This document shows positions 21,595-45,378 of a stretch of DNA of 64,000 nt, piece by piece. The DNA lies in contig JBNKCR010000129.1 in assembly GCA_050287845.1 (NCBI GenBank), forward strand, positions 7,364-71,363, given 5' to 3'. The notes under the pieces were generated by a model, which worked only from the letters and a program-made list of their open reading frames with translations, did no database searches and was not told where the DNA came from. This DNA comes from Polyangia bacterium. Lineage in GTDB: Bacteria > Myxococcota_A > Polyangia > JAAYKL01. The position numbers and the translations under genes were made by a program. Each line of letters begins with the position of its first letter. Within the stretch, counting starts at the first letter, position 1.

Positions 21595-22917
21595 CTAATC
21601 CCAATTGGCCGACTTCGTATCCCATGCGGGATCAGAACAATAGGGGCAACTGTCGCCTACCAGCATTCCTTTTCCGGCGTCGCTTTCATCCCCTTTGAGG
21701 GTCCATTTGAGCCATGCCAGAATAATTTTCGTGAAATCGCCGCTCCCGCCCTGGCCCAGGTCGCCACCGTGTCCGATGTCCTTGCTGAAATACATAATCG
21801 GATTTTCAAGCTTGCTGATGGCATCGTAGTCGCGAAGTCCATTTTCGTAGGCCATATCACTGGGGCCGCCCTGCACAAACAGCACTGGCGTGTGAACGGT
21901 CTGATAAAAGGCATTGTCGGCCGCGAACATGCCGCTGCTGGTCAGCCCCCAGTTTGTCATCCGGGGATCACCTGCGGTGCCTTCGGCCATTAATCCACCG
22001 CAGGAGAAACCGTTGGCTGAGATTTTTGTGGGGTCAAGCTTGTGATAGTAGGGACTGCAGGGTTTGTGATTCTGCTCAATCGCCCAATCAATATATCTGA
22101 TTAGCGGTGCGCCCATTGCAGTCATGTCTCCGGTATCCATGCTGCGATTGCTGGCGTCGCCAGGGGTGCCATCCGCTACAACGAAAAATCCGTAGGAGGC
22201 AATTTCACCCATTGCTGCGGAGTTGGACCCGCCGTTTCGGGAACAAGCACCCTCACCCCATACAAATATGGGGAACCGTTCCTGGGCGTCCAGGTCGGCG
22301 GGACGGTAAATGGTGCCCTCGTTGATGCCGGAATCCGGATTTGTCTCTACCACCACATCATATGGACCGCTTCCGCTGGCGTTTATGCTGCTGACTTTCT
22401 GTGAATCTGTGCAGCTTCCATCAATATCCGGGCCGTCCACGTCACCGTCCGAATCTGTATCGGTGTCGGTGTCTGTATCGGTGTCGGTGTCGGTGTCTGT
22501 GTCTGTGTCGGTATCTGTATCGGTATCAGACTCCGGAATGGTCGCGCCTTCGCAACAGCGCAGCTCTCCTTCGCAGACGCCATTTCTTGCGGTGCCGTCC
22601 CACGAAACGCAGTGGGCCAGACATTCGTATGCGCAGATATCATCTGCATCGGAGTCCGTGTCTGTGTCTGTGTCGGAATCCGTGTCGGTGTCAGTGTCCG
22701 AATCTGTGTCGGTATCGGTATCCGAATCGGTATCAGTATCGGTATCCGAATCTGTGTCGGTATCGGTATCGGTATCCGAATCGGCGTCGCTGTCCGAATC
22801 AGAGTCGTCGGACGAGGAATCGTCTCCGGTGGTGTCCACTCCGCATGTCGGAAATGCGGTACATGCGAAAATCAGCAAAAATGCATACAGTACCATTTTT
22901 ATATTTTTTAACTTCAT
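21595..22917 (-). CDS. secreted alpha/beta-hydrolase esterase with Asp-Thr/Asp-Ser repeat linker
   Basis: Start chosen at MKLKNIKMVLYAFLLIFAC (signal peptide; ORF opens at 22977). Two acidic repeat tracts separated by a six-Cys segment, then a catalytic domain with nucleophile elbow GFSCGG. Confidence 0.75.
   Translation of the reverse strand: MKLKNIKMVLYAFLLIFACTAFPTCGVDTTGDDSSSDDSDSDSDADSDTDTDTDTDSDTDTDTDSDTDTDTDSDTDTDTDSDTDTDTDSDADDICAYECLAHCVSWDGTARNGVCEGELRCCEGATIPESDTDTDTDTDTDTDTDTDTDTDTDTDSDGDVDGPDIDGSCTDSQKVSSINASGSGPYDVVVETNPDSGINEGTIYRPADLDAQERFPIFVWGEGACSRNGGSNSAAMGEIASYGFFVVADGTPGDASNRSMDTGDMTAMGAPLIRYIDWAIEQNHKPCSPYYHKLDPTKISANGFSCGGLMAEGTAGDPRMTNWGLTSSGMFAADNAFYQTVHTPVLFVQGGPSDMAYENGLRDYDAISKLENPIMYFSKDIGHGGDLGQGGSGDFTKIILAWLKWTLKGDESDAGKGMLVGDSCPYCSDPAWDTKSANWD
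22425..22821 (-). repeat. coding hexanucleotide microsatellite (GAY-ACN/AGY)n encoding (D-T/D-S)n
   Basis: Runs of gtatcggtgtcggtgtctgt-type units on the plus strand (about 22440-22520 and 22640-22800), inside esterase codons 53-185. Confidence 0.8.
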
Positions 22918-23317
22918 TATATTGGTTCCTTTCAATTTGTTTTCAGGTCCCGGTTCCATTCGGGGCGAATACTCCATAAAAAATCACAGAATTTTCAGAG
23001 TTCCAGTATCCCGACAGCAAGTGAACAGCGCAGGAATAGTGACATTATTTATGCAAAATGCTGTTTTTCGGAAACGCGACGACTGCGTCGAAAAACATTC
23101 CACGCTGGTTGGTTTCAGTCTGATTGTCGCGTCGGATGCGGATTCGGAGCATATTGACTCCATGCGGATTGTCTAATAAGGAACCCATGAGAAACTGGGC
23201 TTCTGAGCATCTTTTTTTGTAAAGACATCTCAGGGGAAAATGGTAGGATGCCGTTTTTCTGAAAATCAGAAAATCACAATGTATGAACATTCGCAAACTG
23301 GAACATAGGCAACCTGC

Positions 23318-25612
23318 GTGAGTGACGATTCGAAAATTAATGAAGTGATAGCAGAGGAGCAGGCGCTCCTCTCAAAAGTAGTAGTTCATCTGACAACCTC
23401 CTCCAGAAAATCCAGTGTTTACGCCGATTATGATGCGGAATTAATCGAACTTCGGGATGCCCTGGCCGAAGCATTGCCTGAAGATGTACCGTCTCTTGTC
23501 GAGCAGATGACGCGTCTGCAGGCCATTGCGGCACAGCGGGGTCAGGGAGAAGATGTACCGGTGGATCCGGCAAGTCCGTATTTCGGCCACATGCAATTAG
23601 AAGAGGATGGCGAAATTCGGGATGTTCTCCTTGGCAAGCGTACCTACATTTCACCGGGGGATGGCATCCGTATCGTGGATTGGCGAAACGCGCCCGTGAG
23701 CCGTATGTATTACTGCTACGACGAGGGCGATGATTATGAAGAGAGTTTTGGCGGCAAGGTGCGCAGCGGCACTATTTCCACTCGCCGATCGATTACCATC
23801 ACCCGGGGCCAGTTGAGGCGCGTGGATTGTCCCCTGGGGACGTTGGTGAAAAAGGGGGAAGAGTGGATTCGGCTGCGAGAGGCCGGTGCAAAACTTTCAG
23901 GGGGACAGGGCAGTGCCATTCGGGGAACGCGGACGGGGAAATTGGGAGTGGATGCCTATGGCGACTTCAGACAGGACAAGCATTTGCCTGAGATTTCGGC
24001 CCTGCTCGACAAGGATCAGTTTGCACTGATTTCAAGTGATGAGGATGAGCTGCTTGCGGTTCAGGGAAGTGCGGGTTCCGGAAAAACCACAGTGGGACTT
24101 CATCGCATTGCGTATCTGGCATACAGCAGAACAGCTAAAGTGAAGCCATCGAATACTGTCATCATCGTATTGAACAGCGCGCTGGCATCGTACATTGCGG
24201 ATGTGTTGCCGTCTCTTGGGGTTCGCGGGGTCAAGGTCTGGACGTTTGAAAACTGGTGCTCGCGTCTGAGAAAACGGCACATCCCCGGTCTGCCGTCTTT
24301 ATACAGCGAATGGACGCCATCCATTGTGTCCCGTGTGAAAAAGCACCCGGCGTTGCTTCGCATTCTGGATGACTGGGTGGACATGCAGGACGAGACTCTG
24401 ACTGAGAAGATGCTGAAAACGGTCAGCGGTTACAATGATGCTGCCAGGGTGGAAAAAGCATGGAAAACCATTCAACGTCTGCCCATTGAGATTCGGAGGA
24501 GACGGATGCTCAAGTGGCTCGATGGCGAAGCGCGGATTGGGAGAGATACCGGTGATGGTCTTGATATGAAAACCGCGATTGCCCTCGATTCAGCGCTGCA
24601 GCGGATGGGGGAGGTGACAGATGATGTGGTGAATGACTGGGCTGATCTGTTTACGGATAAACGCCAGTTGAAGCATATGTTCGAAACCCACGCCCCGGCG
24701 GAATTTACGGAGTCGGAGCTGGATCGTGTTCATCAATGGTGCACAGATGCATATAAAAAAATATTTGATCAGATGGACGATGATGGCGAAGAGACGATTG
24801 AGGAAGATGACCGCGCAACTATTGACAGGGAAGACGACGCCATTTTGCTCCGACTTTATCAGCTGAAAAAGGGTTGGCTGCGGGAAGGGGGAAAACGTAT
24901 CGAATATGACCACATGATGGTTGATGAAGTGCAGGACTTCAGTGCGCTTGAAGTGCGGGTGTTGATTGGCGCTGTAGGGCAGAACCGTCCGATAACCCTT
25001 GCCGGAGATACAGCGCAGAAAATTGTTCGGGAAGGCGGATTTGATAATTGGGAAGGTTTCATTGACGACCTCGATGTTCAGAATGCCAGACTGGAGCCGC
25101 TTAAGATTGCATATCGGTCCACCATTGAGGTGATGGAAGTGGCGAGAGCCGTGCTCGGACCCCTTGCGGGAGATGAATCGGTGGCCACCCGTCATGGCGC
25201 CCCGGTGGAGGTTCACCAATTTTCAGATCCGGGGCAGGCGGTAGATTTTCTGGGTACCTCGCTTCGGGAACTGTTTCTCAGGGAGCCTCTGGCCAATGTG
25301 GCGATTATTGCCCGGCACGTGAACCAGGCAAAACTGTACTATCAGGGATTGAAGAAGGCGGAAATTCCCAGATTGCGTCTGGTTGTGGAACAGGATTTCT
25401 CTTTTACCCCCGGTATCGAAGTCACTGAAATCCGGCAGGTAAAAGGGCTGGAATTCGATTATGTGGTGATGGTGGAGTGTAATGAGGATTCCTACCCGGT
25501 CACCGACGAAGCCCGGCATCTGTTGCACGTGGGAATGACCCGTGCGGCTCACCAGTTATGGCTGATAACTACCGCGAATCCGTCTCAGCTCATCCCGAAG
25601 AATCTTCTTTGA
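23318..25612 (+). CDS. HelD-like UvrD-family helicase (RNA-polymerase-associated helicase IV type)
   Basis: 764 aa; GTG start; N-terminal region with IVDWRNAPVSRMYY motif; Walker A GSAGSGKTTVGLHRIAYL; C-terminal helicase motifs (LLHVGMTRA). Confidence 0.75.
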   Translation: MSDDSKINEVIAEEQALLSKVVVHLTTSSRKSSVYADYDAELIELRDALAEALPEDVPSLVEQMTRLQAIAAQRGQGEDVPVDPASPYFGHMQLEEDGEIRDVLLGKRTYISPGDGIRIVDWRNAPVSRMYYCYDEGDDYEESFGGKVRSGTISTRRSITITRGQLRRVDCPLGTLVKKGEEWIRLREAGAKLSGGQGSAIRGTRTGKLGVDAYGDFRQDKHLPEISALLDKDQFALISSDEDELLAVQGSAGSGKTTVGLHRIAYLAYSRTAKVKPSNTVIIVLNSALASYIADVLPSLGVRGVKVWTFENWCSRLRKRHIPGLPSLYSEWTPSIVSRVKKHPALLRILDDWVDMQDETLTEKMLKTVSGYNDAARVEKAWKTIQRLPIEIRRRRMLKWLDGEARIGRDTGDGLDMKTAIALDSALQRMGEVTDDVVNDWADLFTDKRQLKHMFETHAPAEFTESELDRVHQWCTDAYKKIFDQMDDDGEETIEEDDRATIDREDDAILLRLYQLKKGWLREGGKRIEYDHMMVDEVQDFSALEVRVLIGAVGQNRPITLAGDTAQKIVREGGFDNWEGFIDDLDVQNARLEPLKIAYRSTIEVMEVARAVLGPLAGDESVATRHGAPVEVHQFSDPGQAVDFLGTSLRELFLREPLANVAIIARHVNQAKLYYQGLKKAEIPRLRLVVEQDFSFTPGIEVTEIRQVKGLEFDYVVMVECNEDSYPVTDEARHLLHVGMTRAAHQLWLITTANPSQLIPKNLL

Positions 25613-25805
25613 AACAATTTGTTGATTTTTTTTGAAACAGTTTGTTACACCGGTGGGCAGATGAGTTATATCCGTAACTGAAATGAATCACTGTGACGCT
25701 GGGGGTACGGTGTGATGGCAGCGGCTTCCTGATTTGGCGATGTATATGCACGCGAGATAACCGAATCGTCGCATGTATTGTGCACAGGGAAGGATAATAA
25801 CCGCC

Positions 25806-27194
25806 ATGCATATTCCTGAAGAACTTTTTGAACTGGTGTTTCAGAGCATCAGCGAAGGGGTTTTCACTGTCGATGAAAATTTTCGAATTACCGCATTCAA
25901 CAGCGCTGCGGAGAAAATTACCGGAATTCCGGCGGAAATGGCCGTGGGACGAAAATGTCACGAAGTGTTTCGGGCCAATATCTGTCAGAACCGCTGTGCC
26001 CTGAAACATACCCTTCAAACGGGAAATCCCCGGTCGGATGTGCGGGTGGATGTACTGGATGCCAATATGGACCCCATTCCCATTGAAGTGTCCACTGCCG
26101 TTCTTCGCGATACGGACGGACGGATGATAGGCGGCGTGGAAATCTTTCGGGATATCAGTGAAATTGAACTGCTGCGGGGCGAGCTGGGGCAGCGGCACGA
26201 GTTTTCCCGCATCATTGGTGCCAGCCCTGCCATTCAGTCTGTCCTGTCGGTGGTGCCACAGGTGGCGCAGTCTGATGCGGCCGTGCTCATCCAGGGGCAG
26301 AGCGGCACCGGGAAGGAACTGGTTGCCGGTGCCATCCACGAACTGTCACGCCGCCGTGACAAGGCGCTTGTCAGAGTCAATTGTGCGGCATTGCCGGATA
26401 CGCTTCTGGAATCAGAACTTTTCGGATATATGAAAGGCGCATTTACCGGGGCGGTGGCGGACAAACCGGGCCGGTTTGCGCAGGCCGATGGGGGGACGCT
26501 GTTTCTGGACGAAATTGGAGACATATCACCGGCGTTTCAGGTAAAGCTGCTCCGCGTGCTCGAAGAAGGGGAGTTTCAACCTCTGGGCAGCACGCGAACC
26601 ATCACCGTTGATGTGCGATTGATTTGCGCCACAAATCTGGATTTGGCGCAGATGGTCCGCGATGGTACTTTCCGGGAAGATCTGTATTACCGGATTCGGG
26701 TGGTACCGTTGCATATGCCTTCCCTGGCAGAGCGCCGACAGGACATCCCCATGCTCATCGACCATTTCGTGAAACTGATTTCGGCCAGAATGGGTAGACG
26801 GCCGCCAGGGTTCAGTCCCCGTACCATGCGACTTTTATATGAATATCATTATCCTGGAAATGTACGTGAACTGCGAAACATTCTGGAGCGCGTTCTGGTG
26901 CTCTGCAACCAGGACGTGGTGGAACCACCGTGTTTGCCCCCGGAAATATACATGCCCCGTCATTTCGAATCCGCTTCGGTTGTCCCTGGGGAAGAGGCGG
27001 AACCGGGTAGATTGGCCGCCAATAACGATTCCCTTCGGAGAAGTGTTTCGCCGCCTTACCTGGCCGGAGATGAAGCGGCGACCTTGAAGCAGGCGCTGGC
27101 AGCTGCTTCCTGGAATCGGAATCTGGCGGCAAAACGCCTTGGAATCAGTCGTACTACACTCTGGCGCCGTATGAGAAAATACGGCCTCGAATAA
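25806..27194 (+). CDS. sigma-54-dependent transcriptional activator with N-terminal PAS domain
   Basis: PAS-like N-terminus; AAA+ sigma-54 interaction domain with Walker [15 protein letters not shown] motif, arginine finger region; C-terminal Fis-type HTH ([24 protein letters not shown]). ORF opens at 25773. Confidence 0.85.
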
Positions 27195-27282: not shown

Positions 27283-27603
27283 ATGTCTTTTCGGGAAAAA
27301 TGGCGGCATGCATTTGCGCTGGAACCGGCTTTGCCGCCGGAGCCGGAGACACTGCCGGGTGTGCTGGAAAAATTTGCGGCACAGGTGGTGGAACGTCGGA
27401 TGGAGACACCGGCAATTCTGTTTCTGGAGATGGCGCGCCCCCTCAATTTCATTGGCAGCCAGTTGATATTTGCGGTCACTCCGGTAGCGGGGCTGTTTAA
27501 AACGGACCACGAGCTCAACGAAGTTGCCCGTGCGCTGGAACACCGGGGTGCCATTGAGAGAATGGTTCAGCGCATCGAGCAACTTTCCCTGGAACGGAAA
27601 TGA
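27283..27603 (+). CDS. hypothetical small protein (first gene of a three-gene operon)
   Basis: 106-aa ORF whose stop overlaps the start of the next gene (ATGA). Confidence 0.5.
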   Translation: MSFREKWRHAFALEPALPPEPETLPGVLEKFAAQVVERRMETPAILFLEMARPLNFIGSQLIFAVTPVAGLFKTDHELNEVARALEHRGAIERMVQRIEQLSLERK

Positions 27604-29378
27604 CTGACTTTGAAGGTGCCAATGAAGGTCGGGTCATCGTTATCACCGATTGCGGGTCCACTACCACCAAAGCCATTCTGATTGAGAAAACAAATGGCGT
27701 GTATCGGCAAGTCTGTCGCGGAGAATCTCCCACGACAGTGGAAGCACCGGTGGAAGACGTGACTGTAGGAGTAAAGCGCGCATTGACGGACTTGTCGGCA
27801 ATCAGTGGCAGACAGCTGATCGACGAAAAAAATGACATTATCCGACCGGCCCGGGGCAGGGTTGGATGCGACTGGTATATTTCCACATCGTCTGCCGGTG
27901 GTGGATTGCAGATGGCGGTTCTGGGACTGGTGAAAAACATCAGTGCATCGTCGGCGCTGAAAGCGGCCCTGGGGGCTGGTGCAATTGTGACCGAATGCAT
28001 CGCCAGTGATGATGAAAAGGATACCCTCGCTCAGGTGGAACGGCTGCGCAGGCTACGGCCGGATATGGTGCTGCTGGCCGGAGGCACCGATGGCGGGCAA
28101 ACGACAGGCGTGGTGGAATTGGCGGAACTGCTGGCCCTTGCGGAACCGCAACCCCGATTCGGGGACAGATTTCAGTTGCCGGTGGTGTATGCGGGAAATC
28201 GGGATGTCCGTGATGAGGTAGGTCGGATTCTATCGAAAACCGCAAAAGTGATTCATACAGACAATGTGCGTCCGACCATTGAAGCAGAGACACTGACATT
28301 TGCACGGGATCGCATTCATTCGCTTTTTCTGGAGCATGTGATGCAACAGGCGCCCGGCTTTTCAAAACTTCTCGCCCTGTGTGATACCGATGTGATGCCA
28401 ACACCGTCCGCGGTTGGAAAAATGCTGCAGCTTCTTGGCGAAAAGCAGGGCATCAATGCATTGTGCGTGGATATTGGCGGCGCGACCACCGACGTATTCT
28501 CTGTAATGAATGGCCAATTCAATCGGACGGTCAGCGCCAACCTGGGGATGAGTTACTCCGCTGCGTTTGTGCTGAAGGAATGTGGTCTCGAAAATATCAG
28601 TCGATGGTTGCCGGTTGAAATGGATGAGGGCGAATTGCTCAATCAGGTAATGAACAAGACCGTTCGCCCCACCACGATTCCCGATACGGAAGAAGCGCTG
28701 ATGGTGGAGCAGGCTCTGGCCCGGGAAGCATTGAGAATATCATTGGAACAGCACACGGCGTTTGCCCACGAATTGAAAGGTGCGGTGACAGAACGCAACA
28801 TTGATGGTGGATTTTCTTCGGGTCAGGTGGCGAAGTGGCGCATGGCCAATGTGAATCTGCTGATTGGTTCCGGCGGTGTGCTTTCCCATGCGCCCTGTGA
28901 AATGCAGACCGTGGCCATGCTGGTCGATGCCTTTTTGCCGGAGGGCGTAACAGTGATTGCCAGGGACTCGGTATTCATGATGCCCCACCTCGGGGTGTTG
29001 AGTGGCATGGATGAAAATGCCGCGCTGGAAGTGTTTTTCAACGATTGTGTTATTCCGCTGGTAACGTCCGTGGTGCCGAAGGGACGATGGAAAGCGGGAC
29101 AGTCAGTTGTATCCTATCGGTTTTCGTCTGAATCCGGTCAGCATTGGTCGGGGACGCTTCGCTGGGGCGAGCTCAAAATGTGCCGTGCGCCGGATGGCGG
29201 CATGTTGACCCTGACACCGGCGCGGCATGTGGATTCGGGATTCGGTCCGGGGAAACCGGGGACGATTTCAGTTAAGCCCTCGCGCCTGGGAATATTGTTT
29301 GATGGAAGATCCCGCCCTCTGGTCAACCGGGATGCCAACCTGTGGCAATCACTTTTTAAGGAGGGGCCCCATGAGTAA
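27600..29378 (+). CDS. ASKHA-fold ATPase, glutamate-mutase-L (GlmL/MutL)-like
   Basis: 592 aa; two nucleotide-binding-like motifs in the arrangement seen in GlmL: ITDCGSTTTKAIL near the N-terminus and VDIGGATTDVFSV mid-protein. Confidence 0.6.
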   Translation: MTDFEGANEGRVIVITDCGSTTTKAILIEKTNGVYRQVCRGESPTTVEAPVEDVTVGVKRALTDLSAISGRQLIDEKNDIIRPARGRVGCDWYISTSSAGGGLQMAVLGLVKNISASSALKAALGAGAIVTECIASDDEKDTLAQVERLRRLRPDMVLLAGGTDGGQTTGVVELAELLALAEPQPRFGDRFQLPVVYAGNRDVRDEVGRILSKTAKVIHTDNVRPTIEAETLTFARDRIHSLFLEHVMQQAPGFSKLLALCDTDVMPTPSAVGKMLQLLGEKQGINALCVDIGGATTDVFSVMNGQFNRTVSANLGMSYSAAFVLKECGLENISRWLPVEMDEGELLNQVMNKTVRPTTIPDTEEALMVEQALAREALRISLEQHTAFAHELKGAVTERNIDGGFSSGQVAKWRMANVNLLIGSGGVLSHAPCEMQTVAMLVDAFLPEGVTVIARDSVFMMPHLGVLSGMDENAALEVFFNDCVIPLVTSVVPKGRWKAGQSVVSYRFSSESGQHWSGTLRWGELKMCRAPDGGMLTLTPARHVDSGFGPGKPGTISVKPSRLGILFDGRSRPLVNRDANLWQSLFKEGPHE

Positions 29379-31585: not shown

Positions 31586-34500
31586 TCAGGGAGTATGCGG
31601 TTTGAACCCGCCTCCACCGGGGGTTTCGATGGTGAGGATGTCCCCGGGAAATACATCTACCGTATCACAGCCCCCCAGTGAAAGTTGCGTACCGTCTGCC
31701 CGTTGCAGGCTGTTTTTTCCCGGAGCGCCATTTTGACCGCCAAAGAGCCCTCTGGGGGCGTGGACGCGGTGACTCGATACAATGCTGACCGTCAGAGGCT
31801 CTTTGAAGGCAATGCGACGGATAGCACCGTTTCCGCCATTGAAGCGCCCCGGACCGCCGCTGCCATGCCGCACGGAAAACTGTTCCAGTTTCACTGGAAA
31901 TCGGGATTCCAGCACCTCGGGGTCCGTTATTCTGGAGTTGGTCATGTGGCATTGAATCGCGTCGGTGCCGTGAAACGATTGGCCGGCCCCACTGCCGCCA
32001 CAGATGGTTTCGTAGTATTGATACTGATAATTGCCGAAAGTGAGGTTGTTCATAGTCCCCTGGGAACCAGCCAGTTTGCCAAGGGCCTGCAACAGAACAT
32101 CCACGATGTGCTGGGAGGTTTCCACGTTGCCTGCCACCACGGCCATGGGATAGCCGGGGTGGAGTATGCATCCTTCCGGTACAATGATTTCAAGGGGAAT
32201 GAGACAGCCGCTGTTCAACGGAATGTCTCTTGTGAGTGTGCGAAAGACATAGAGTACCGCGGCATGGGTGATGGACAGGGGGGCATTGAAATTGTGTCCG
32301 GGGTTTTGCGGTGAGGTCCCGGTAAAATCAATTCGGGCGGTTCGTGCCGGCTGGTCGATATGAACACTCACACAAATCCGGTCTCCTGTATCCATTTCAA
32401 TTTCGGCAGCGCCGTTCTGCAGGGTAGTGAGCACCTCCCGCACCGATGCGGCGGCGTTGTTCTGGACGTGGGTCATGTAGTTGGTGACCACGACCGTTCC
32501 GAACTGGCTCACCAGATGACAGAGCTCCGCATCGCCTTTGGCATTGGCGGCCACCTGCGCACTGATGTCGGCGATATTGCACTGCACATCTCTGGCCGGA
32601 TGCGCAGATGCCAGAAACCGCTGTTGCAGTTCAGCTTCCTGGAATTCTCCGCGGTGGGCTATCCTTATTCCGTCGAACAGGATGCCCTCGTCATCAATGT
32701 GCACACTGTCGGGGGGGATCGAACCGGGGGTGGTGCCGCCGACATCGGCGTGATGTCCCCGGCTGGCAACAAAAAAGAGAGGCGTTTTTGCATTGGCCGC
32801 AAACACCGGCGTCACCACCGTGAGGTCAGGCAGGTGGGTACCGCCGTGATAGGGGGAATTGAGCAGGAACACATCGCCTTTTTCCATGGGGGAGTATTTC
32901 TCAATGATGGCCCTGACACTGGGGGACATGGAACCAAGATGAACGGGAATATGTGGGGCATTGGCCACCAGATTTCCCTGTGCGTCAAACACGGCGCAGG
33001 AAAAGTCCAGCCGTTCCCGGATATTGACTGACGCTGCCGTATTCTGGAGGGTGTATCCCATCTGTTCGGCCACGTTCATAAAACGGTTGTTGAACAGTTC
33101 CAGAAACACGGGGTCCACATCAGTGCCGACGGCAACCGTTTTGGGTAATGGCTTATGTCGGGTAAGGAAAAAGTGTCCGGCCGTGTGCAGCGTGGCCTGC
33201 CAACCCGGTTCAACCACGATGGTGGAATTGGGCTCGATGATAATACACGGACCGGTCAGTACCGCGCCCGGATGCAGGTCGTGGCGAAGGAAGATACTCG
33301 CATCCAACCATTTGCCGCCGGTAAAGAAACGGGTGTGCTTTCCCTCTTCAAGGATATATGAATCAGTAAGTGTTTCCGAAGCGTCTCGGGGCGTCATGCC
33401 TCCCTGACGTACTTCACACACGGCCTTGGCCACTTCGATGGGTTTTCGATTGAAAACAAATCCGAACCGGTTGCGGTGAATTTCTTCAAACTCTTTACGC
33501 ATCTGAGTGATGGCGCCGAACGGGACTGAAAGGGGGCTGTCTGTCCCTGAATATCGAAGCAGCAACCGCTGATACACCACCGGCGGTCGAAAGTGGGAGG
33601 AAAGCTCGGTGGCACACGCCCGGTTCAGTTTTTCAAATATGGCATGGAGCCCGGGGATATTTTCTTCCACCAGTTCGAGAAGTACCGAACGTTCCTTTAC
33701 CACCACGTTGTCGGCCAGTCCCATCCCCAGGGCGGAGAGCACGCCCGCTTCGGGATGGATGAACACGCGGGTCATTCCCAGCACGTCAGCTGTGCGGCAG
33801 GCATGCTGCCCCCCGGCGCCGCCGAAGCAGCACAGGGTGTATTCCCGAACGTTGTATCCCCGTTGCACTGAAATTCGCTTGATGGCCTGCGCCATATTTT
33901 CCACGGCGATGTCCAGAAAGCCTTCCGCGATGTCGGCGACGCTTCTGGATGTTCCGAAGGACCGGTTGATTTCGTCGGTCAAGGTCTCAAGCCGCAACAC
34001 CGCAGCCGCCCTATCGAGAGACTCGTCGCCGGATGGACCGAATACCTTTGGAAAATACTCGGGCAATATTTTTTTCAGCACCACGTTGCAGTCTGTCACC
34101 GTGGGCGGTCCGCCGCGGCGGTACGATGCCGGACCGGGACTGGCACCGGCGGATTCCGGTCCCACCTGGCAGCGGCCATCACTGAATTTGAGAATGGATC
34201 CGCCGCCCGCCGCCACGGTGTGAATGTTGAGCATGGGGCACTGCAGGCGGACATCGGCGATTTCGGATTCGTAGTTGAGTTCGTACTCACCGTTAAAGTG
34301 GGCGACGTCCGTGGAGGTGCCTCCCATATCAAAGGTAATCACGTTGTGATATCCGGCGGCCCGGCAAGTGGTGACTGCGCCAACGATGCCTCCGGCCGGC
34401 CCCGAAAGAATGCTGTCTTTGCCCTGAAAATGGGCGGCATCTATGAGGCCGCCATGGGATTGCATGAACATAAGCGACGGCATACCGCCATCCGGCGTTG

Positions 34501-35224
34501 CAGCGTTTGTATGCAGGCTTGATTGTACCTGCGAAACATAGCGTTTGAGGAGCGGTGACAGATATGCATCCACCACGGTGGTATCACCGCGACTGATAGC
34601 CTTGATGGATGGACTGATGCGGTGCGATACCGATATGTGATGAAAACCCATTTCAACCGCAATATCTGCAATCCGGTTTTCATGGGTCCCGTTGCGGTAT
34701 CCGTGCAACAGCACAATCGCCACGGTCCGAACGCCGGAAGACAGGATACTTTTCAGAACTCTGCGGGTATGGGGTTCATCCAATGGTGTCAATATAACGC
34801 CATTTGCATCAATCCGCTCCCGAATTTCATGGACACTTTCGTACAGGGCCAGCGGTCTCTGAATGTGCAGTCTGAATAGATCGCGGCGATGCTGATAGCC
34901 GATGTGAAGCAAATCTCCGAAGCCTTCGGTCACCAGAAGTGCCACCCGTTCCCCCCTGCGTTCCAGCAGCGCATTGGTACCTACCGTGGTACCCATCTTC
35001 ACCACTTCGATTTTGTCGGTGGTCCATGGGGAAGGATCTGCATCGGCGAGAAGTTTGCGGATGCCAAAAATGGCAGCATCCTTGTACTGCTCCGGATTTT
35101 CAGACAAGTATTTGGCGGAATGAATCTGCCCATCGGGCGAGCGGCCGACCACGTCGGTGAAGGTGCCCCCCCGATCTATCCAGAATTGCCATCGGCGGGT
35201 TTCGGAATGTTTTTTTCTGTTCAC
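31586..35224 (-). CDS. 5-oxoprolinase / hydantoinase family protein (fused HyuA-HyuB type)
   Basis: 1212 aa; N-terminal hydantoinase-A ASKHA motif [13 protein letters not shown] and a C-terminal hydantoinase-B-like half, in one polypeptide. Confidence 0.85.
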
Positions 35225-37005: not shown

Positions 37006-37902
37006 ATGGACCATGGTGATTTACGAAATTTTATTGCCCTTGCTGAAACACTGCATTTTGCAAAAGCGGCAGCGCGGGTGCACATCAGTCCCTCCGCGCT
37101 CACCCGGGGAATTCAGCGGCTGGAATCCGAGGTGGGCCATACCCTCTTTGCCCGGGGAAACCGACATGTGAAGCTTACCCCGGCGGGGCGGACTTTTCTT
37201 ACTTACGCCGAAGGGGTGCTGGCGGACTGGGAGACCTGTCGTGCCACCCTGCAGAAAAAGGGCGACGTGGTGGAGGGCTCCCTCTCCATCTACAGTTCGA
37301 TTACCGCAGTGTACACCATTCTTTCCGCAGTGCTGCGTCCCTTTCGCAATCGATATCCGGCGGTACAGGTGAATCTGTCCACTGGCGCGGCGGCGGATGC
37401 CATTGGCAGGGTGCGAGACGGTCTGGCGGATTGTGCGGTGGCGGCTATGCCGGAGACGCTGCCTGCCTCGGTTTCTTTTTTGAACCTCACCACCACGGCC
37501 CTGGTGTGTATCGCCCCGGTGGGATTCAGGCGGATTCCCCGATTCAATCCGGCGGGGGGAGTGGATTGGCAGCGTACCCCCATCATTATGCCGGACAGAG
37601 ATGCGGCGCGAACCATGCAGCAGAAATGGTTTCTGGCCCAGGGCATTGCGCCGTTGATTTTTGCGGAAGTGGCCGGAAATGAAGCCATCATTGCCATGGT
37701 CAGCCTTGGATTCGGTGTGGGGATTGTTCCGGAAATCGTGCTGAATCAGAGTCCATTGCGGGAAAAGGTGCAGATCCTCAATATTTTGTCACCATTGCCC
37801 CCGTATGCCATCGGTGTTGTCTACGCAACCCGCCGGGAGACGGACCCCAGAATTGCCGCCTTCTGCGACGTTGCCCGGGAAACTGCCCTGGGAACCGGTT
37901 GA
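37006..37902 (+). CDS. ilvY: LysR-family transcriptional regulator IlvY
   Basis: 298 aa; N-terminal wHTH (LHFAKAAARVHISPSALTRGIQRLE); divergent from ilvC as in enterobacteria; collinear with E. coli IlvY by eye. Confidence 0.8.
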   Translation: MDHGDLRNFIALAETLHFAKAAARVHISPSALTRGIQRLESEVGHTLFARGNRHVKLTPAGRTFLTYAEGVLADWETCRATLQKKGDVVEGSLSIYSSITAVYTILSAVLRPFRNRYPAVQVNLSTGAAADAIGRVRDGLADCAVAAMPETLPASVSFLNLTTTALVCIAPVGFRRIPRFNPAGGVDWQRTPIIMPDRDAARTMQQKWFLAQGIAPLIFAEVAGNEAIIAMVSLGFGVGIVPEIVLNQSPLREKVQILNILSPLPPYAIGVVYATRRETDPRIAAFCDVARETALGTG

Positions 37903-37919
37903 AGCGCGGGAGTATCCGC

Positions 37920-38456
37920 TTATTCAACTTTTATAAAGCGGTCCGGGGAAACATTGCAGACGGGACAATCTTCGGTGGGTTCTCCCACGTGCACATATCC
38001 ACAGACGGAACATACGTAATAATCGCTTTCCCGTTCATCGAGCATGTGGTCAATGGCGCTCCGGTACAGTTTGCCATGCACCTCTTCGGCATCCCGCGCC
38101 TGAGAAAAGCTGATTTCCGCAGCGCGGTTCCCCTCCTCAATGGCAGTTTTGATGAACCTGGGATAAATGCCTTCGCTGATTCGGGTTTCGCTTTCAAAAC
38201 TCTCCTGGAGATTCTCCTGGGTGGATTTAATGACGCGCAGGATGCGCAGATGTTTCAGGGCGTGAATCTCCTCCGCGGCACTGATGGCGCGGAACAGACG
38301 AGCCATCTGGGGATATCCCTCCCTATCCGCCTTTTCGGCAAACCCTTTAAGACGCAACGCTGCCGTTGCTTCCCCGACAAACGCTTCGTAAAGATTGTCC
38401 TCGGTTTTCTGTTTTTCCGGTTTGAGTTTCAAAGCTTCCATTTCCTGCTCCATCAT
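37920..38456 (-). CDS. rbr: rubrerythrin
   Basis: 178 aa; ferritin-like diiron four-helix region with E-x-x-H pairs, then C-terminal rubredoxin-like CSVCGYVH...CPVC. Confidence 0.85.
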   Translation of the reverse strand: MMEQEMEALKLKPEKQKTEDNLYEAFVGEATAALRLKGFAEKADREGYPQMARLFRAISAAEEIHALKHLRILRVIKSTQENLQESFESETRISEGIYPRFIKTAIEEGNRAAEISFSQARDAEEVHGKLYRSAIDHMLDERESDYYVCSVCGYVHVGEPTEDCPVCNVSPDRFIKVE

Positions 38457-38527
38457 TTGCCATCGGTATATTGGTGATACCCGGCGATTTTATCCATGTC
38501 TGTTGCCATTGAAATATGAGTTTATTG

Positions 38528-38564: not shown

Positions 38565-38989
38565 TACTATAATCACAGATTCCGGATTCTCACCTGAATT
38601 TGCGATAAAATGTGTACTTTTTTCAGTGGCACACTGCGGCACAGTCGCCGAATCGGTGTTCAAACCGAATTCATCTTTAAATTCAGGCACATAACATAAA
38701 TGGAGCTAAGCAATCGGCAGTGGAATAGCACTTGCATCCGGAGTGGGCGTATAAAAAAGCCATCTCGCGGACCAGACGCTTTATTGGCCGAAACGGCCAT
38801 CCCGGGTTCGCCCGTACCGCAGGAGGGGTAAAAATTGCCATGGTACGGGCGAACCCATATTTCAGACACCCCGGTTCAGATTCCCGCAGATAATCCGCCC
38901 ATACTGTTGACGTTGCTCACCGGATTTCTTAGGTATCGCATCCGGACAGATATGCGCGGTGCGAAGAAAACCGGTGGGGATGAAGGCCT

Positions 38990-41394: not shown

Positions 41395-42747
41395 ATGACT
41401 ATGGATAAATTTTTTGAAACACTCAGTAGAGAAGTCAGGGAGAACGATGCCATTTCGAATGATATGTTCAAGAAGTTCAATGTCAAACGGGGGCTGCGCA
41501 ACGAAGATGGCAGTGGCGTGCTGGTGGGTCTTACGGAAATCTCAAGTGTTATGGGGTATACGAAATACGACGAGGAAGTAGTTCCTGTTGAAGGCCGTCT
41601 GTTCTATCGGGGATTCGATGTGAAAGACCTTGTTACCCTCGATGTCGAGCTTCAGGCGAAGCATTCTCTTTTCGAAGAAACGGCATATCTTCTTCTGGCG
41701 GGCAAACTTCCAGATCAGAAGGAACTTGCGTATTTCCGTCAATTGCTGGCATCCAATCGCAGATTGCCGAAAAATTTTGTGCGGGATCAGCTCTCCACAT
41801 TCCGGACGCCTGATATTATGAACGCACTGGCACGTTCGGTGCTCACTCTGTATATGTCGGATTCAAACCCGGACGACACAGCTCTTGACAATCTGCTTCG
41901 GCAGTCGGTGGAGCTGATTGCCAAAGTGCCATCCATTGTGGCCTATGCGTATCGGGTGTATCTGGAAGCTTTCAAACAGCAGAGTCTGATTATTCACAAA
42001 TCGAATCCGGAATACACCACCGCGGAGAACTTCCTGCATCTGATTCGAGATAACGGTCAGTTCACCGATACCGAAGCCCGGGTTCTCGATACGGCCCTGG
42101 TGCTGCATGCCGACCACGGTGGCGGAAACAACTCCACGTTTGCCGCGCGGGTTGTCACGTCCAGTGGCACGGACACCTACTCGGCCATCGCCGCAGCGCT
42201 TGGTTCGTTGAAAGGGCCTCTGCATGGTGGCGCCAATCTCTACGTGATGAAAATGATGGACAGTATTAAAGCCGATGTATCGGACTGGAATGACAACGAG
42301 CAGCTGCGCAGTTACATCCTGAAAATATTGAATGGAGAGGTGGGGAACGGCTCCGGAAAGGTTTATGGATTCGGGCATGCCGTGTATACCCTGAGCGATC
42401 CCAGAGCCAAAATCCTTAAACAATACGCTGAACAACTGGCCAATGAGAAAAATCGAACCGAGGAATTTGCGCTGTATGCCAAGTTGGAAGAAATTGTCCC
42501 CGAGGCATTTGCCGAGTTTAAGGGCGGCGGGAAAGTGGTGGCTCCGAACGTGGATTTCTACAGCGGATTTGTGTACGACTGCATGGGGATTCCAAGGGAA
42601 GTATATACCCCTCTGTTTGCCATGGCGCGCGTCGCAGGCTGGGTGTCCCATCGCATAGAGGAAATACTGGTTCAGCGGCGCATCATGCGTCCCGCTTACA
42701 AAAACGTCACGACCATCCGAACTCATACGCCGCTCAATAAACGATAG
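41395..42747 (+). CDS. citrate synthase (or 2-methylcitrate synthase)
   Basis: 450 aa; signature GFGHAVY and HADHGGGNNSTF active-site region; ADHEG-type catalytic His context. Confidence 0.85.
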   Translation: MTMDKFFETLSREVRENDAISNDMFKKFNVKRGLRNEDGSGVLVGLTEISSVMGYTKYDEEVVPVEGRLFYRGFDVKDLVTLDVELQAKHSLFEETAYLLLAGKLPDQKELAYFRQLLASNRRLPKNFVRDQLSTFRTPDIMNALARSVLTLYMSDSNPDDTALDNLLRQSVELIAKVPSIVAYAYRVYLEAFKQQSLIIHKSNPEYTTAENFLHLIRDNGQFTDTEARVLDTALVLHADHGGGNNSTFAARVVTSSGTDTYSAIAAALGSLKGPLHGGANLYVMKMMDSIKADVSDWNDNEQLRSYILKILNGEVGNGSGKVYGFGHAVYTLSDPRAKILKQYAEQLANEKNRTEEFALYAKLEEIVPEAFAEFKGGGKVVAPNVDFYSGFVYDCMGIPREVYTPLFAMARVAGWVSHRIEEILVQRRIMRPAYKNVTTIRTHTPLNKR

Positions 42748-45199: not shown

Positions 45200-45378
45200 A
45201 AAAAGTCTCCCTTCTTCGGTAAACCCTCTAACCGCAACAGAACTTCGCTGCGGTGATGTATTCTCCCGCTGTCTCGGTAGGTTGCCGTGCCAATACAAAG
45301 TGTTGAGGAGAAGGAGAAATGGGTTGGGATATCTGAACTATCGGCGGATGTCAAGATAGTTGTCGCATGAGTGTTGCA

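What the first reader, a model, noticed from the sequence alone, without database searches (positions are those of the whole stretch)
23318..25612. HelD-like helicase, first of two paralogs in one 18-kb stretch
764-aa UvrD-family protein with the N-terminal extension and DWRxP motif typical of HelD. A second copy lies at 38990..41077. The two proteins are clearly related but diverged. Two HelD-like genes so close together is unusual and raises the question of sub-functionalisation.
Basis: partly seen in the sequence, partly recalled or inferred. Interest (0 to 1): 0.45.

Follow-up and report, generated by a model that had tools for sequence, protein, structure and literature searches.

The report
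Two different-class HelD RNA-polymerase recyclers
The gene is a genuine HelD-type RNA-polymerase recycling ATPase of the little-studied "class III" kind found in myxobacteria. The second copy 13 kb away is a class I-like HelD of separate ancestry, not a recent duplicate, so this is a modest extension of known biology rather than a new system.

Summary
Both ORFs exist as described: 23318..25612 (+, 764 aa) and 38990..41077 (+, 695 aa). Both are HelD-family RNA-polymerase (RNAP) recycling motors, not ordinary UvrD helicases.

- **ORF1 is class III.** It carries the published class III hallmark DWRNAP (DWRX[A/S]P). Its family is essentially confined to Myxococcota and falls below every NCBIfam HelD cutoff. 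Its predicted fold matches B. subtilis HelD best, then M. smegmatis HelD.
- **ORF2 is class I-like.** It has DWRAP, passes the NCBIfam HelD_BACSU cutoff, and belongs to a ~690-aa clade spread across Gram-negative phyla.
- **They are distant homologs.** Identity is about 24-28%, but the two align end to end.
- **The pair is conserved; the proximity is not.** Two sister MAGs carry both genes on separate contigs, each with its own conserved neighbours. None of 80 other class III loci has a second helD within 10 kb.
- **They evolve at different rates.** Across the three genomes the class III copy is 85-87% identical and the class I-like copy 65-66%.

Multi-helD genomes, typically one large and one small isoform, were already known. 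A class III plus class I-like mix in one genome departs from the published rule that classes follow taxonomy.

Two unreported class III features are leads: a conserved GGQG linker, and an acidic loop at the position of the class II PCh-loop.

The parts
23318..25612 (+). ORF1: class III HelD (764 aa, GTG start), an RNAP-recycling SF1-type ATPase
   Evidence: ORF. HelD_BACSU is the best NCBIfam family at 178 bits, below the cutoff. B. subtilis HelD is the best PDB match by sequence and by fold. The homolog family lies in Myxococcota.
23318..23572 (+). ORF1 secondary-channel arm (SCA, aa 1-85): helical hairpin with helices 3-28, 38-51 and 54-75, and a tip at L53-D56
   Evidence: AF2 model. The family-conserved tip is LRDxIAEAxxED(V/I)PxL(V/L)EQM, with E55 and D56 invariant. 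The class III profile aligns E55/D56 to B. subtilis D56/D57.
23480..23485 (+). Codons for the invariant acidic tip residues E55 and D56
   Evidence: Invariant in 44/44 family members. They align to B. subtilis HelD D56/D57, whose mutation together with E60 abolishes rifampicin protection (PMC12802891).
23573..23872 (+). ORF1 N-terminal globular beta domain (aa 86-185), which carries the Trp-cage motif
   Evidence: Beta strands 90-185 in the AF2 model. Aligns to B. subtilis HelD residues 97-181.
23678..23695 (+). DWRNAP (aa 121-126): the class III form of the HelD DWR motif, with one extra residue
   Evidence: 116 of 120 close homologs have DWRxAP. 142 of the 150 best library representatives have DWRx[AS]P and none has DWR[AS]P. 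Definition in PMC8655204.
23873..23983 (+). Linker insertion (aa 186-222) absent from ORF2 and class I, with the conserved motif LxGGQGxAxR...GxLGV; predicted disordered
   Evidence: Gap opposite ORF2 in hhalign. Near-invariant L193, G195, G196, G198, R202, G207, L209, G210. pLDDT 34-45. Present in 31 of 49 full-length class III representatives.
24065..24088 (+). Walker A motif GSAGSGKT (aa 250-257) in domain 1A
   Evidence: Invariant G250 and A252-T258.
24248..24892 (+). Clamp arm (CA, aa ~311-525): all-helical insertion that splits domain 1A, in place of the helicase 1B domain
   Evidence: AF2 helices 310-518, pLDDT above 90 for most of the arm. Aligns with the CA region of B. subtilis HelD and the CO region of M. 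smegmatis HelD.
24767..24823 (+). Acidic loop DQMDDDGEETIEEDDRATI (aa 484-502) at the exit of the clamp arm, just before the conserved LDxEDDAILL motif
   Evidence: 11 D/E among the 27 residues 476-502. The family segment is 17-110 aa and always D/E-rich. ORF2 lacks about 36 aa here. The M. smegmatis PCh-loop tip D482-D485 aligns onto it at low posterior probability (PMC7749160).
24893..25609 (+). Second half of domain 1A, with Walker B DEVQD (aa 536-540, nt 24923..24937), plus domain 2A, with YRST, GLEF and TRA motifs
23222..23259 (+). Conserved upstream block AAGACA-N17-TAGGAT, about 60 nt before the ORF1 start; a candidate promoter
   Evidence: Conserved in four related genomes. Coordinates. 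It was not picked up by the consensus scan, whose hits were not above chance, so it is only a lead.
38990..41077 (+). ORF2: class I-like HelD, small isoform (695 aa)
   Evidence: HelD_BACSU 516.9 bits against a cutoff of 419. 6wvk_H at 2.8e-109. Foldseek 6wvk_H at 8.2e-44, against 1e-24 for M. smegmatis HelD. DWRAP at nt 39368..39382, Walker A at 39659..39682 and Walker B at 40406..40420.
38990..39253 (+). ORF2 long secondary-channel arm (aa 1-88): helices 5-48 and 55-87, with tip R50-S-D-M-D-H-A-E-K58
   Evidence: AF2 model. M53, D54, E57 and K58 are invariant in 37 family members.
37920..38456 (-). Rubrerythrin gene transcribed divergently from ORF2. In the two sister MAGs it lies directly upstream of helD only in GCA_016935665.1.
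   Evidence: Pfam Rubrerythrin and RUBY_RBDX. Same arrangement in L004 and L005. In GCA_016937015.1 (L006) rubrerythrin genes lie about 9 kb downstream instead.
41395..42747 (+). Citrate synthase, the conserved downstream neighbour of the class I-like helD
   Evidence: Pfam. Same adjacency in both sister MAGs, at 83-86% identity.
25773..27194 (+). PAS / sigma-54 activator / HTH_8 gene, the downstream neighbour of the class III helD in two of three sister MAGs
   Evidence: Pfam. Same adjacency in GCA_016935665.1 and GCA_016937015.1, at 79-81% identity.

Best explanation
**What the genes are.** ORF1 (23318..25612) encodes a class III HelD. This is an SF1-helicase-derived ATPase that binds RNA polymerase (RNAP) rather than unwinding DNA. 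ORF2 (38990..41077) is a second HelD of a different class: a class I-like small isoform with a longer, B. subtilis-type secondary-channel arm (SCA) and no GGQG linker or acidic clamp-arm loop.

**Inferred mechanism for ORF1.** This is by homology with the solved class I and class II complexes.
1. [quoted passage not shown] 2. The helical clamp arm (CA) inserted in domain 1A enters the primary channel and forces the clamp open.
3. Together these expel DNA and RNA from stalled complexes.
4. ATP binding and hydrolysis by the intact Walker A and Walker B motor drive release and recycling.

**History of the pair.**
- The two are distant homologs, not a local duplication.
- Both were already present in the common ancestor of this MAG lineage, each in its own syntenic context.
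- Their 13-kb spacing in this genome results from rearrangement.
- The class III copy is the lineage's conserved resident factor. The class I-like copy evolves about 2.6 times faster and probably entered the lineage by old horizontal transfer from other Gram-negative bacteria.
- Non-redundant roles are likely, but untested.

**Shown versus inferred.** Shown: gene structure, family and class membership, motifs, predicted fold, distribution, synteny and rates. Inferred: RNAP binding, recycling activity and any division of labour.
For: **HelD identity.**
- HelD_BACSU is the best NCBIfam family for both proteins. ORF2 is above the cutoff.
- All 44 ORF1-family members hit the HelD and HelR models best. 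UvrD, PcrA and Rep score only 42-52 bits against cutoffs above 900.
- B. subtilis HelD and then M. smegmatis HelD are the top PDB matches by sequence.
- The same order holds by predicted fold. The ORF1 model has pLDDT 84.7 and pTM 0.79; the ORF2 model has pLDDT 77.

**Class III assignment of ORF1.**
- DWRNAP is present.
- 116 of 120 homologs and 142 of the 150 best representatives have DWRx[AS]P; none has the class I/II form.
- The family is Myxococcota-restricted among the 80 GTDB loci recovered.
- The SCA is shorter than in ORF2 and B. subtilis HelD.
- These match the published class III definition (PMC8655204, PMC10719064).

**Class I-like assignment of ORF2.**
- 120 of 120 homologs have DWRAP.
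- The HelD_BACSU cutoff is passed.
- The Foldseek E-value for B. subtilis HelD is 8.2e-44, against about 1e-24 for M. smegmatis HelD.

**Motor intact.** Walker A, Walker B and the YRST, GLEF and TRA motifs are invariant.

**Shared ancestry of the pair within the lineage.**
- GCA_016935665.1 and GCA_016937015.1 each carry both genes.
- Local synteny is conserved around each gene: ccmF-ccmA-ccmB-DUF2934-helD(III)-sigma54 activator, and helD(I-like)-citrate synthase.
- GC and GC3 of both genes match their neighbours.

**Rate difference.** Class III pairs are 85-87% identical and class I-like pairs 65-66%, in all three pairwise comparisons. Citrate synthase is 83-86% identical over the same genomes.
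Against: - No experiment or solved structure exists for any class III HelD (PMC12802891, PMC10719064). RNAP binding and recycling by ORF1 rest on homology at about 19-20% structural-alignment identity.
- Foldseek TM-scores are only about 0.4-0.5. This is expected for a protein with multiple flexible arms, but it is not a rigid global match.
- I built no reference phylogeny with Firmicute class I, actinobacterial class II and M. xanthus class III sequences. Class assignment therefore rests on motif, HMM scores and distribution.
- Orthology of the class I-like genes across the three MAGs is inferred from the conserved citrate-synthase adjacency. If they were independent acquisitions, the rate comparison would be void.
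- The taxonomic placement of the window's organism is indirect: NCBI labels of relatives ('Deltaproteobacteria bacterium') plus the affinity of the class III family for Myxococcota.
- Deltaproteobacterial RNAP carries lineage-specific insertions near the HelD contact sites. It is not known how a class I-type arm fits them (PMC8655204).
Confidence: 0.82

Rival explanations
1. ORF1 is an ordinary SF1 DNA repair or replication helicase (UvrD, PcrA, Rep or helicase IV type) that unwinds DNA. The HelD resemblance would reflect only the shared helicase core.
For: Pfam reports only the UvrD-helicase, UvrD_C and AAA_19 domains. Public sources name the relatives 'DNA helicase II / PcrA' or '3'-5' exonuclease'. 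PcrA and UvrD structures follow closely behind HelD in the fold search, at E about 1e-18.
Against: - UvrD, PcrA, Rep and helicase IV NCBIfam scores are 40-52 bits against cutoffs of 543-1144. HelD_BACSU scores 178 bits.
- The match to B. subtilis HelD includes the HelD-specific N-terminal domain.
- The absolutely HelD-specific DWR motif is present and invariant.
- The position of the 1B domain is taken by a roughly 210-aa helical arm.
- The whole protein aligns end to end with a bona fide HelD family.
Confidence: 0.04
2. One or both genes are the helicase component of an anti-phage defence system (Gabija GajB-like, NERD+UvrD, or a DRT-associated helicase).
For: PADLOC gives weak hits. ORF1 hits NERD+UvrD at 69 bits and GajB at up to 45 bits. 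ORF2 hits GajB at up to 64 bits.
Against: - The hits cover only helicase-core segments and are far below the HelD scores.
- No GajA, NERD or reverse-transcriptase partner is adjacent. The neighbours are ccm genes, a sigma-54 activator, rubrerythrin and citrate synthase.
- The neighbours are stably syntenic in sister genomes rather than forming a variable island.
- An integrase lies 4.3 kb downstream of ORF2, but it is an insertion into otherwise conserved synteny.
Confidence: 0.03
3. The two HelDs are functionally redundant, and the class I-like copy is decaying or dispensable after horizontal acquisition. On this view its faster divergence reflects relaxed constraint, not a distinct role.
For: The class I-like copy is only 65-66% identical among sister MAGs, against 85-87% for class III. 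Its SCA (59%) and 2A domain (50%) are the least conserved parts.
Against: - The ORF is intact, with every ATPase and HelD motif invariant.
- It is retained in all three genomes next to the same neighbour.
- The linker and 1A-1 segments remain 87-97% identical.
- Its clade is widely maintained across Gram-negative phyla, including complete genomes.
- All helD copies examined in other multi-copy organisms are expressed (PMC8655204).
Confidence: 0.1

Closest known systems
Class III HelD (Larsen et al. 2021, PMC8655204; examples Haliangium ochraceum Hoch_0025, Sorangium cellulosum SCE1572_03860, Myxococcus xanthus MXAN_5482)
   Same: - The DWRX[A/S]P motif is present. ORF1 has DWRNAP, exactly as reported for H. 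ochraceum.
- The host range is Deltaproteobacteria/Myxococcota.
- The domain order is SCA, Trp-cage domain, split 1A with clamp arm, then 2A.
- The SCA is shorter than in class I.
- At 764 aa it fits the 'large isoform' size range.
   Different: - ORF1 and about two-thirds of full-length relatives carry a conserved GGQG-containing linker. I did not find this described.
- The family has a D/E-rich loop at the clamp-arm exit, whereas M. xanthus class III HelD is described as lacking a PCh domain.
- Here the class III gene coexists with a class I-like gene, which was not reported for Deltaproteobacteria.
Class I HelD, Bacillus subtilis YvgS/HelD (PDB 6WVK, 6ZCA, 6ZFB)
   Same: - It is the best solved-structure match for both ORFs.
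- ORF2 passes the NCBIfam equivalog cutoff, has DWRAP, and has a long Gre-like SCA with an acidic tip (D52, D54, E57).
- ORF1 shares the overall architecture and two acidic tip residues.
   Different: - ORF2 is about 80 aa shorter, mostly in the clamp arm, and comes from a Gram-negative clade.
- ORF1 has the extra residue in the DWR motif, a shorter SCA, the GGQG linker and the acidic loop.
- ORF1 scores only 178 bits against the 419-bit cutoff.
Class II HelD / HelR (Mycobacterium smegmatis HelD, PDB 6YXU/6YYS; Streptomyces HelR)
   Same: - The family and core are the same.
- ORF1's acidic loop sits at the same topological position as the PCh-loop. The tip DDED 482-485 is aligned onto it by the profile search, at low confidence.
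   Different: - HelD_MYCSM and HelR scores are far below their cutoffs: 85-134 bits against 750-1100.
- ORF1's loop is about 30 aa shorter than the PCh-loop.
- The class II SCA is shorter.
- No rifamycin-associated element was looked for or found here.
E. coli helicase IV (the original 'HelD') and UvrD/PcrA/Rep
   Same: They share the SF1 1A and 2A ATPase core and its motifs.
   Different: - They have no DWR N-terminal domain.
- They have true 1B and 2B domains and unwind DNA.
- NCBIfam scores here are 40-65 bits against cutoffs of 543-1168.

Membership tests
HelD family (RNAP recycling motor, all classes) | [quoted passage not shown] | tested here: met
   ORF1 has helices 3-28, 38-51 and 54-75, then beta strands 90-185. 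ORF2 has helices 5-48 and 55-87, then beta strands. Both regions align to the B. subtilis HelD N-terminal domain.
HelD family (RNAP recycling motor, all classes) | The absolutely conserved DWR (Trp-cage) motif in the N-terminal domain | tested here: met
   ORF1 has D121-W122-R123 and ORF2 has D127-W128-R129. Both are invariant in their families.
HelD family (RNAP recycling motor, all classes) | Domain 1A split by a helical clamp arm in place of 1B, followed by an intact 2A | tested here: met
   All-helical insertions lie between Walker A and Walker B: aa 311-525 in ORF1 and aa 284-465 in ORF2. HelD chains are the top fold matches.
HelD family (RNAP recycling motor, all classes) | Intact ATPase motifs (Walker A, Walker B and the others) | tested here: met
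   ORF1 has GSAGSGKT and DEVQD. ORF2 has GVAGSGKT and DEMQD. YRS[ST], GLEF and TRA are invariant.
HelD family (RNAP recycling motor, all classes) | Binds RNAP in the secondary and primary channels, releases nucleic acids, and has no helicase activity | not testable with these tools
   This needs biochemistry or cryo-EM. No class III protein has been tested (PMC12802891).
Class III HelD | DWRX[A/S]P: one extra residue after the R | tested here: met
   ORF1 has DWRNAP. 116 of 120 homologs and 142 of 150 representatives have DWRx[AS]P. ORF2 does not meet this feature (DWRAP).
Class III HelD | Found in Deltaproteobacteria/Myxococcota | tested here: met
   Nearly all named relatives, and nearly all of the 80 GTDB loci, are labelled Myxococcota, Polyangia or Nannocystis, or carry the older or generic labels 'Deltaproteobacteria', 'Proteobacteria' or 'Pseudomonadota bacterium'. 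One MAG is labelled 'uncultured Enterobacterales' and two carry no taxon.
Class III HelD | [quoted passage not shown] | tested here: inconclusive
   It is shorter than ORF2's: the descending helix is 22 residues against 33. It is also shorter than in B. subtilis HelD, which needs about 13-16 extra residues in the alignment.
Class III HelD | No PCh-loop or PCh domain | tested here: inconclusive
   There is no 56-aa PCh-loop. However, ORF1 has a 19-aa D/E-rich loop at the same topological site, and relatives carry up to 110 aa there.
Class I HelD (NCBIfam NF041464 HelD_BACSU) | Whole-protein score at or above the 419-bit curated cutoff | tested here: met
   This row refers to ORF2, which scores 516.9 bits. 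All 37 family members hit this model best. ORF1 scores 178.3 bits and does not meet the cutoff. The best E-value among its 44 family members is 5e-64.
Class I HelD (NCBIfam NF041464 HelD_BACSU) | DWR[A/S]P motif, a long SCA with an acidic tip, and no PCh-loop | tested here: met
   This row refers to ORF2. It has DWRAP and helices 5-48 and 55-87. Its tip is D52-M-D54-H-A-E57-K, with M53, D54, E57 and K58 invariant. It has no insertion before the E-H-A-D-V-Y-P motif.
Class II HelD / HelR (NF041465, NF041254, NF041258) | Score at or above the curated cutoffs (750-1100 bits) | tested here: not met
   ORF1 scores 85-106 bits and ORF2 scores 114-134 bits.
UvrD/PcrA/Rep/helicase IV | Score at or above the curated cutoffs, with 1B and 2B domains | tested here: not met
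   Scores are 40-65 bits against cutoffs of 543-1168. A helical arm replaces 1B.
Gabija GajB and other defence helicases (PADLOC) | A full-length match plus a partner gene (GajA, NERD or RT) adjacent | tested here: not met
   Only partial helicase-core hits of 69 bits or less. No partner gene in the neighbourhood.

The most novel reading that the evidence does not exclude
The large class III HelDs, ORF1 included, may not simply be 'class I-like without a PCh-loop'. They may use two additional RNAP-contacting elements that have not been described.

1. **An acidic loop at the clamp-arm exit.** It would act like the class II PCh-loop, as a nucleic-acid mimic reaching toward the active site. It could clear nucleic acids, or RNAP-targeting antibiotics of the kind myxobacteria themselves make.
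2. **A conserved but intrinsically disordered GGQG linker.** It would fold only on the polymerase.

In this lineage the class III factor would be the housekeeping recycler. The co-resident, faster-evolving class I-like HelD would serve a separate, condition-specific role. That would be a true division of labour between two HelD classes on one RNAP.
Probability: 0.25. Interest if true: 0.55.

Novelty: new member of a known kind. Interest (0 to 1): 0.3.

Why it matters
HelD proteins rescue stalled RNA polymerase. In Gram-positive bacteria they also protect it from rifamycins. Class III is the one class with no structure and no biochemistry, so this locus is useful in four modest ways.

- **A well-behaved class III sequence.** The AF2 model is confident, the sequence is a compact 764 aa, and concrete conserved elements are now mapped for mutagenesis: the E55/D56 tip, DWRNAP, the GGQG linker and the acidic loop.
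- **A natural two-class case.** A class III and a class I-like HelD must share one Gram-negative RNAP here. That bears on how HelD arms accommodate the beta and beta-prime lineage insertions, and on whether multiple isoforms divide labour.
- **An annotation gap.** Class III HelDs fall below every NCBIfam HelD model and are being named 'ATP-binding domain-containing protein', '3'-5' exonuclease' or 'DNA helicase II'.
- **A wider class I-like distribution.** A ~690-aa class I-like HelD clade occurs in genomes of Gammaproteobacteria and in several other Gram-negative phyla. The 2021 survey could not confirm this.

None of this overturns current understanding.

Tried and rejected
**Led nowhere.**
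- **Class II reference sequences.** I used the last homolog search with a 95-aa M. smegmatis HelD fragment taken from a PDB alignment, hoping to recover full-length class II sequences. These were meant for a three-class tree and a profile test of the PCh-loop. Only fragments of 166 aa or less came back, so no reference phylogeny could be built.
- **Promoter and terminator scans.** Consensus scans around both genes gave counts no higher than shuffled controls. I therefore could not test for the convergent dual-promoter rifampicin sensor described for B. subtilis helD (PMC12802891).
- **Upstream alignments.** Alignment of upstream regions from sister MAGs did reveal short conserved blocks, but their function is unknown.
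- **RNA features.** tRNA and Rfam scans of the whole window found nothing.

**Considered and rejected.**
- **Conserved linkage of the two genes.** None of 80 class III loci has a second helD-like gene within 10 kb.
- **Local tandem duplication.** The genes are only 24-28% identical and belong to different classes.
- **Recent horizontal transfer of ORF2.** GC and GC3 match the neighbours, and synteny with citrate synthase is shared by sister MAGs.
- **Defence-system helicase.** PADLOC hits are weak, cover only the helicase core, and have no partner gene nearby.
- **Misassembly joining the two genes.** Two assemblies carry both on one contig.


Full report
**1. The observation**

The window has a 764-codon ORF at 23318..25612 (+, GTG start) and a 695-codon ORF at 38990..41077 (+, ATG start). 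tblastn of both proteins against the window finds no third copy. Both genes lie on one 160-kb NCBI contig and on one 22-kb Logan contig, so the arrangement is probably not an assembly artefact, though the two assemblies may share reads.

Pfam sees only the generic UvrD-helicase, AAA_19 and UvrD_C domains in both. BLASTP between the two gives 27-28% identity in two blocks. A profile-profile comparison of their families gives 100% probability over 661 columns at 24% identity, from the N-terminal arm to the C-terminus. The stated facts hold, with one correction: ORF1's motif is DWRNAP (aa 121-126), not DWRxP. ORF2 has DWRAP.

**2. Both are HelD, not ordinary helicases**

- **NCBIfam.** The best family for both is NF041464 HelD_BACSU. 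ORF2 scores 516.9 bits, above the 419-bit cutoff. ORF1 scores 178.3 bits, below it. UvrD, PcrA, Rep and helicase IV score 40-65 bits against cutoffs of 543-1168.
- **Solved structures, by sequence.** ORF1 hits B. subtilis HelD (6wvk_H, 1.7e-32, including the N-terminal block 85-168), then M. smegmatis HelD (4.7e-17), then PcrA. ORF2 hits 6wvk_H at 2.8e-109.
- **ORF1 model.** The AlphaFold2 model, built on 44 homologs, is confident (pLDDT 84.7, pTM 0.79). It shows a helical hairpin (3-28, 38-51 and 54-75), a beta domain carrying DWRNAP, and a 1A domain split by a helical arm of about 210 aa. The rest of 1A and 2A follow.
- **Fold search.** Foldseek ranks B. subtilis HelD first (4.7e-29), then M. 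smegmatis HelD (about 1e-22), then PcrA and UvrD (about 1e-18). ORF2's model (pLDDT 77) hits B. subtilis HelD at 8.2e-44 and M. smegmatis HelD at about 1e-24.
- **ATPase motifs.** Walker A, Walker B and the other ATPase motifs are invariant in both families.
- **Defence systems.** PADLOC gives only weak hits of 69 bits or less to the helicase core, and there are no partner genes nearby.

**3. They belong to different HelD classes**

Larsen et al. (PMC8655204) define class III HelD by an extra residue in the Trp-cage motif (DWRX[A/S]P). Their examples include DWRNAP in Haliangium, and they place the class in Deltaproteobacteria. A 2022 review (PMC10719064) adds absence of the PCh-loop and an intermediate SCA length.

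Evidence that ORF1 is class III:
- ORF1 has DWRNAP.
- 116 of its 120 closest database relatives have DWRxAP.
- Its N-terminal 230 aa were searched against 1.84 billion representatives. That search returned 743 hits at E<=1e-3 and 129 at E<=1e-30. Of the 150 best, 142 carry DWRx[AS]P and none carries the class I/II form.
- A scan of one genome per GTDB species returned 80 loci. Nearly all are labelled Myxococcota, Polyangia or Nannocystis, or carry older or generic 'Deltaproteobacteria', 'Proteobacteria' or 'Pseudomonadota bacterium' labels. One is labelled 'uncultured Enterobacterales'.
- All 44 aligned family members hit HelD_BACSU best, yet below the cutoff. This explains their generic public names.

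Evidence that ORF2 is class I-like:
- It and all 120 of its listed relatives have DWRAP.
- The relatives are ~690-aa proteins from Gammaproteobacteria (Halomonas, Alkalilimnicola ehrlichii, Marinobacter), Desulfobacterota, Nitrospirota, Acidobacteriota and others. Many are labelled 'HelD family protein' by NCBI.
- No Myxococcales names occur among the top 120.

**4. Anatomy and differences between the two**

| Feature | ORF1 (class III) | ORF2 (class I-like) |
|---|---|---|
| SCA helices | 3-28, 38-51 and 54-75; descending helix 22 residues | 5-48 and 55-87; descending helix 33 residues |
| SCA tip | LRDxIAEAxxED(V/I)PxL(V/L)EQM, with E55 and D56 invariant | R-S-D52-M-D54-H-A-E57-K, with M53, D54, E57 and K58 invariant |
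| GGQG linker | present, aa 186-222 | absent |
| Acidic loop in the clamp arm | present, aa 484-502 | absent; about 36 aa missing here |

B. subtilis HelD needs about 13-16 extra residues in the arm when aligned to the class III profile. That alignment puts E55/D56 opposite B. subtilis D56/D57. Those residues, together with E60, are required for rifampicin protection (PMC12802891).

ORF1 has two elements that ORF2 and class I lack.

- **The GGQG linker.** This is a 37-aa linker (aa 186-222) between the N-terminal domain and 1A. AF2 predicts it as disordered (pLDDT 34-45). Even so it has near-invariant L193, G195, G196, G198, R202, G207, L209 and G210. It is present in 31 of 49 full-length class III representatives.
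- **The acidic loop.** Its sequence is DQMDDDGEETIEEDDRATI (aa 484-502), just before the conserved LDxEDDAILL motif. In relatives this segment is 17-110 aa long and always D/E-rich. Topologically it lies at the exit of the clamp arm, about 40 residues before Walker B. That is where M. smegmatis HelD carries its PCh-loop (448-503), whose tip D482-D485 reaches the active site (PMC7749160). The class III profile search aligns that DDED tip onto the acidic loop, but only at low posterior probability.

The literature states that M. xanthus class III HelD has no PCh domain (PMC8655204). I therefore treat the acidic loop as a lead, not a finding.

**5. History of the pair**

Two sister MAGs each carry both genes, on separate contigs:

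| Genome | Class III copy | Class I-like copy |
|---|---|---|
| GCA_016935665.1 | P0002, 87% identical to ORF1 | P0123, 66% identical to ORF2 |
| GCA_016937015.1 | P0003, 86% | P0124, 65% |

- **Class III synteny.** The class III gene keeps the context ccmF-ccmA-ccmB-DUF2934-helD-sigma54 activator.
- **Class I-like synteny.** The class I-like gene keeps citrate synthase downstream in both. Rubrerythrin lies directly upstream in GCA_016935665.1.
- **Intervening region.** The DNA between the two blocks differs between genomes.
- **Other class III loci.** None of the 80 class III loci elsewhere has a second helD-like gene within 10 kb.
- **Base composition.** GC and GC3 of both genes match their neighbours.

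So the pair is old in this lineage, and the 13-kb proximity is incidental.

Over the same three genomes the class III proteins are 85-87% identical and the class I-like proteins 65-66%. Citrate synthase is 83-86% identical and the sigma-54 activator 79-81%. The class III SCA is its most conserved part (93%), while the class I-like SCA (59%) and 2A domain (50%) are its least conserved. This fits a tightly constrained resident factor alongside a faster-evolving accessory one. It could also reflect relaxed constraint.

**6. Mechanism**

This is inferred by homology with the class I and class II cryo-EM structures (PMC7749167, PMC7749165, PMC7749160).
1. The SCA enters the RNAP secondary channel, anchored by the Trp-cage.
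2. The clamp arm enters the primary channel and opens the clamp and the RNA exit channel.
3. Nucleic acids are expelled.
4. The ATPase cycle drives release of the factor.

For ORF1 every step is inference. No class III HelD has been studied experimentally (PMC12802891, PMC10719064).

**7. Comparison with what is known, and novelty**

Genomes with several helD genes, typically one large (~740-850 aa) and one small (~680-720 aa), are already described. That includes up to three copies in Deltaproteobacteria, and all copies examined were expressed (PMC8655204). The 764-aa plus 695-aa pair fits this pattern.

- **What departs from the literature.** The 2021 survey says multiple helD genes segregate by class according to taxon. 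Here a class III and a class I-like gene coexist in three related genomes.
- **What extends it.** Class I-like HelDs turn out to be widespread in Proteobacteria, including Mb-scale genome records. The 2021 survey could not verify this.

Both points are incremental. The finding is a new member of a known kind, with two structural leads of moderate interest: the GGQG linker and the PCh-like acidic loop.

**8. Limits**

- I built no reference phylogeny. The attempt to fetch class II sequences failed.
- Promoter scans were uninformative.
- The organism's taxonomy is indirect.

**Verdict.** Interest is 0.3.

Noticed in passing
window 38804..38856: A perfect 15-bp inverted repeat (GGGTTCGCCCGTACC ... 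GGTACGGGCGAACCC, 23-nt spacer) sits in the rubrerythrin-helD intergenic region. It lies inside a roughly 40-nt segment that is absent from the two sister MAGs, so it may be a small inserted hairpin or REP-like element.
   Followed up: partly
window 23153..23181 and 23222..23259: Two sequence blocks upstream of the class III helD are conserved across related MAGs: the second in all four genomes compared, the first in three of them. The first contains TTGACT on the + strand and TAGACA-16-TATGCT on the - strand. The second reads AAGACA-N17-TAGGAT. They could be promoters, possibly divergent or overlapping, but the consensus scans were not above chance.
   Followed up: partly
window 38906..38939: A conserved block, TTGACG-N17-TAGGTA, lies about 50 nt upstream of the class I-like helD start. 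It is shared with both sister MAGs and is a candidate promoter.
   Followed up: partly
window 21595..22977 (-): A 460-aa ORF with no Pfam or PADLOC match lies between the DUF2934 gene and the class III helD. It is absent at this position in GCA_016935665.1 and GCA_016937015.1. It may be an inserted gene or a spurious ORF.
   Followed up: partly
window 45379..46224 (-): An integrase-core (rve, rve_3) gene, probably an IS element, and the adjacent 431-aa ORF (44003..45298) interrupt the citrate synthase-dockerin-PFOR synteny seen in GCA_016937015.1.
   Followed up: partly
window 55860..61775 (+): A 1971-aa non-ribosomal peptide synthetase (AMP-binding, Condensation, AMP-binding, PP-binding, Thioesterase). 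This is secondary-metabolite capacity about 15 kb from the class I-like helD. No link to the HelD genes was established.
   Followed up: no
window 37899..38477 (+) versus 37920..38456 (-): There are overlapping ORFs on both strands. Only the minus-strand ORF has Pfam matches (Rubrerythrin and its rubredoxin-like domain), so the 192-aa plus-strand ORF is a shadow ORF.
   Followed up: yes
window 27600..29378 (+) and 31586..35224 (-): A PF13941 'MutL'-family ATPase (hydantoinase and glutamate-mutase-accessory type, not the mismatch-repair MutL) and a fused hydantoinase A/B (oxoprolinase-like, 1212 aa) lie between the two helD genes. The MutL-like gene also follows the class III helD in GCA_016934495.1.
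   Followed up: partly
P0144, P0149, P0167, P0188 and others (relatives of ORF2): Class I-like HelDs of about 690 aa are encoded on Mb-scale genome records of Gammaproteobacteria, such as Alkalilimnicola ehrlichii MLHE-1 and several Halomonas. The 2021 HelD survey could not confirm this distribution from complete genomes.
   Followed up: partly
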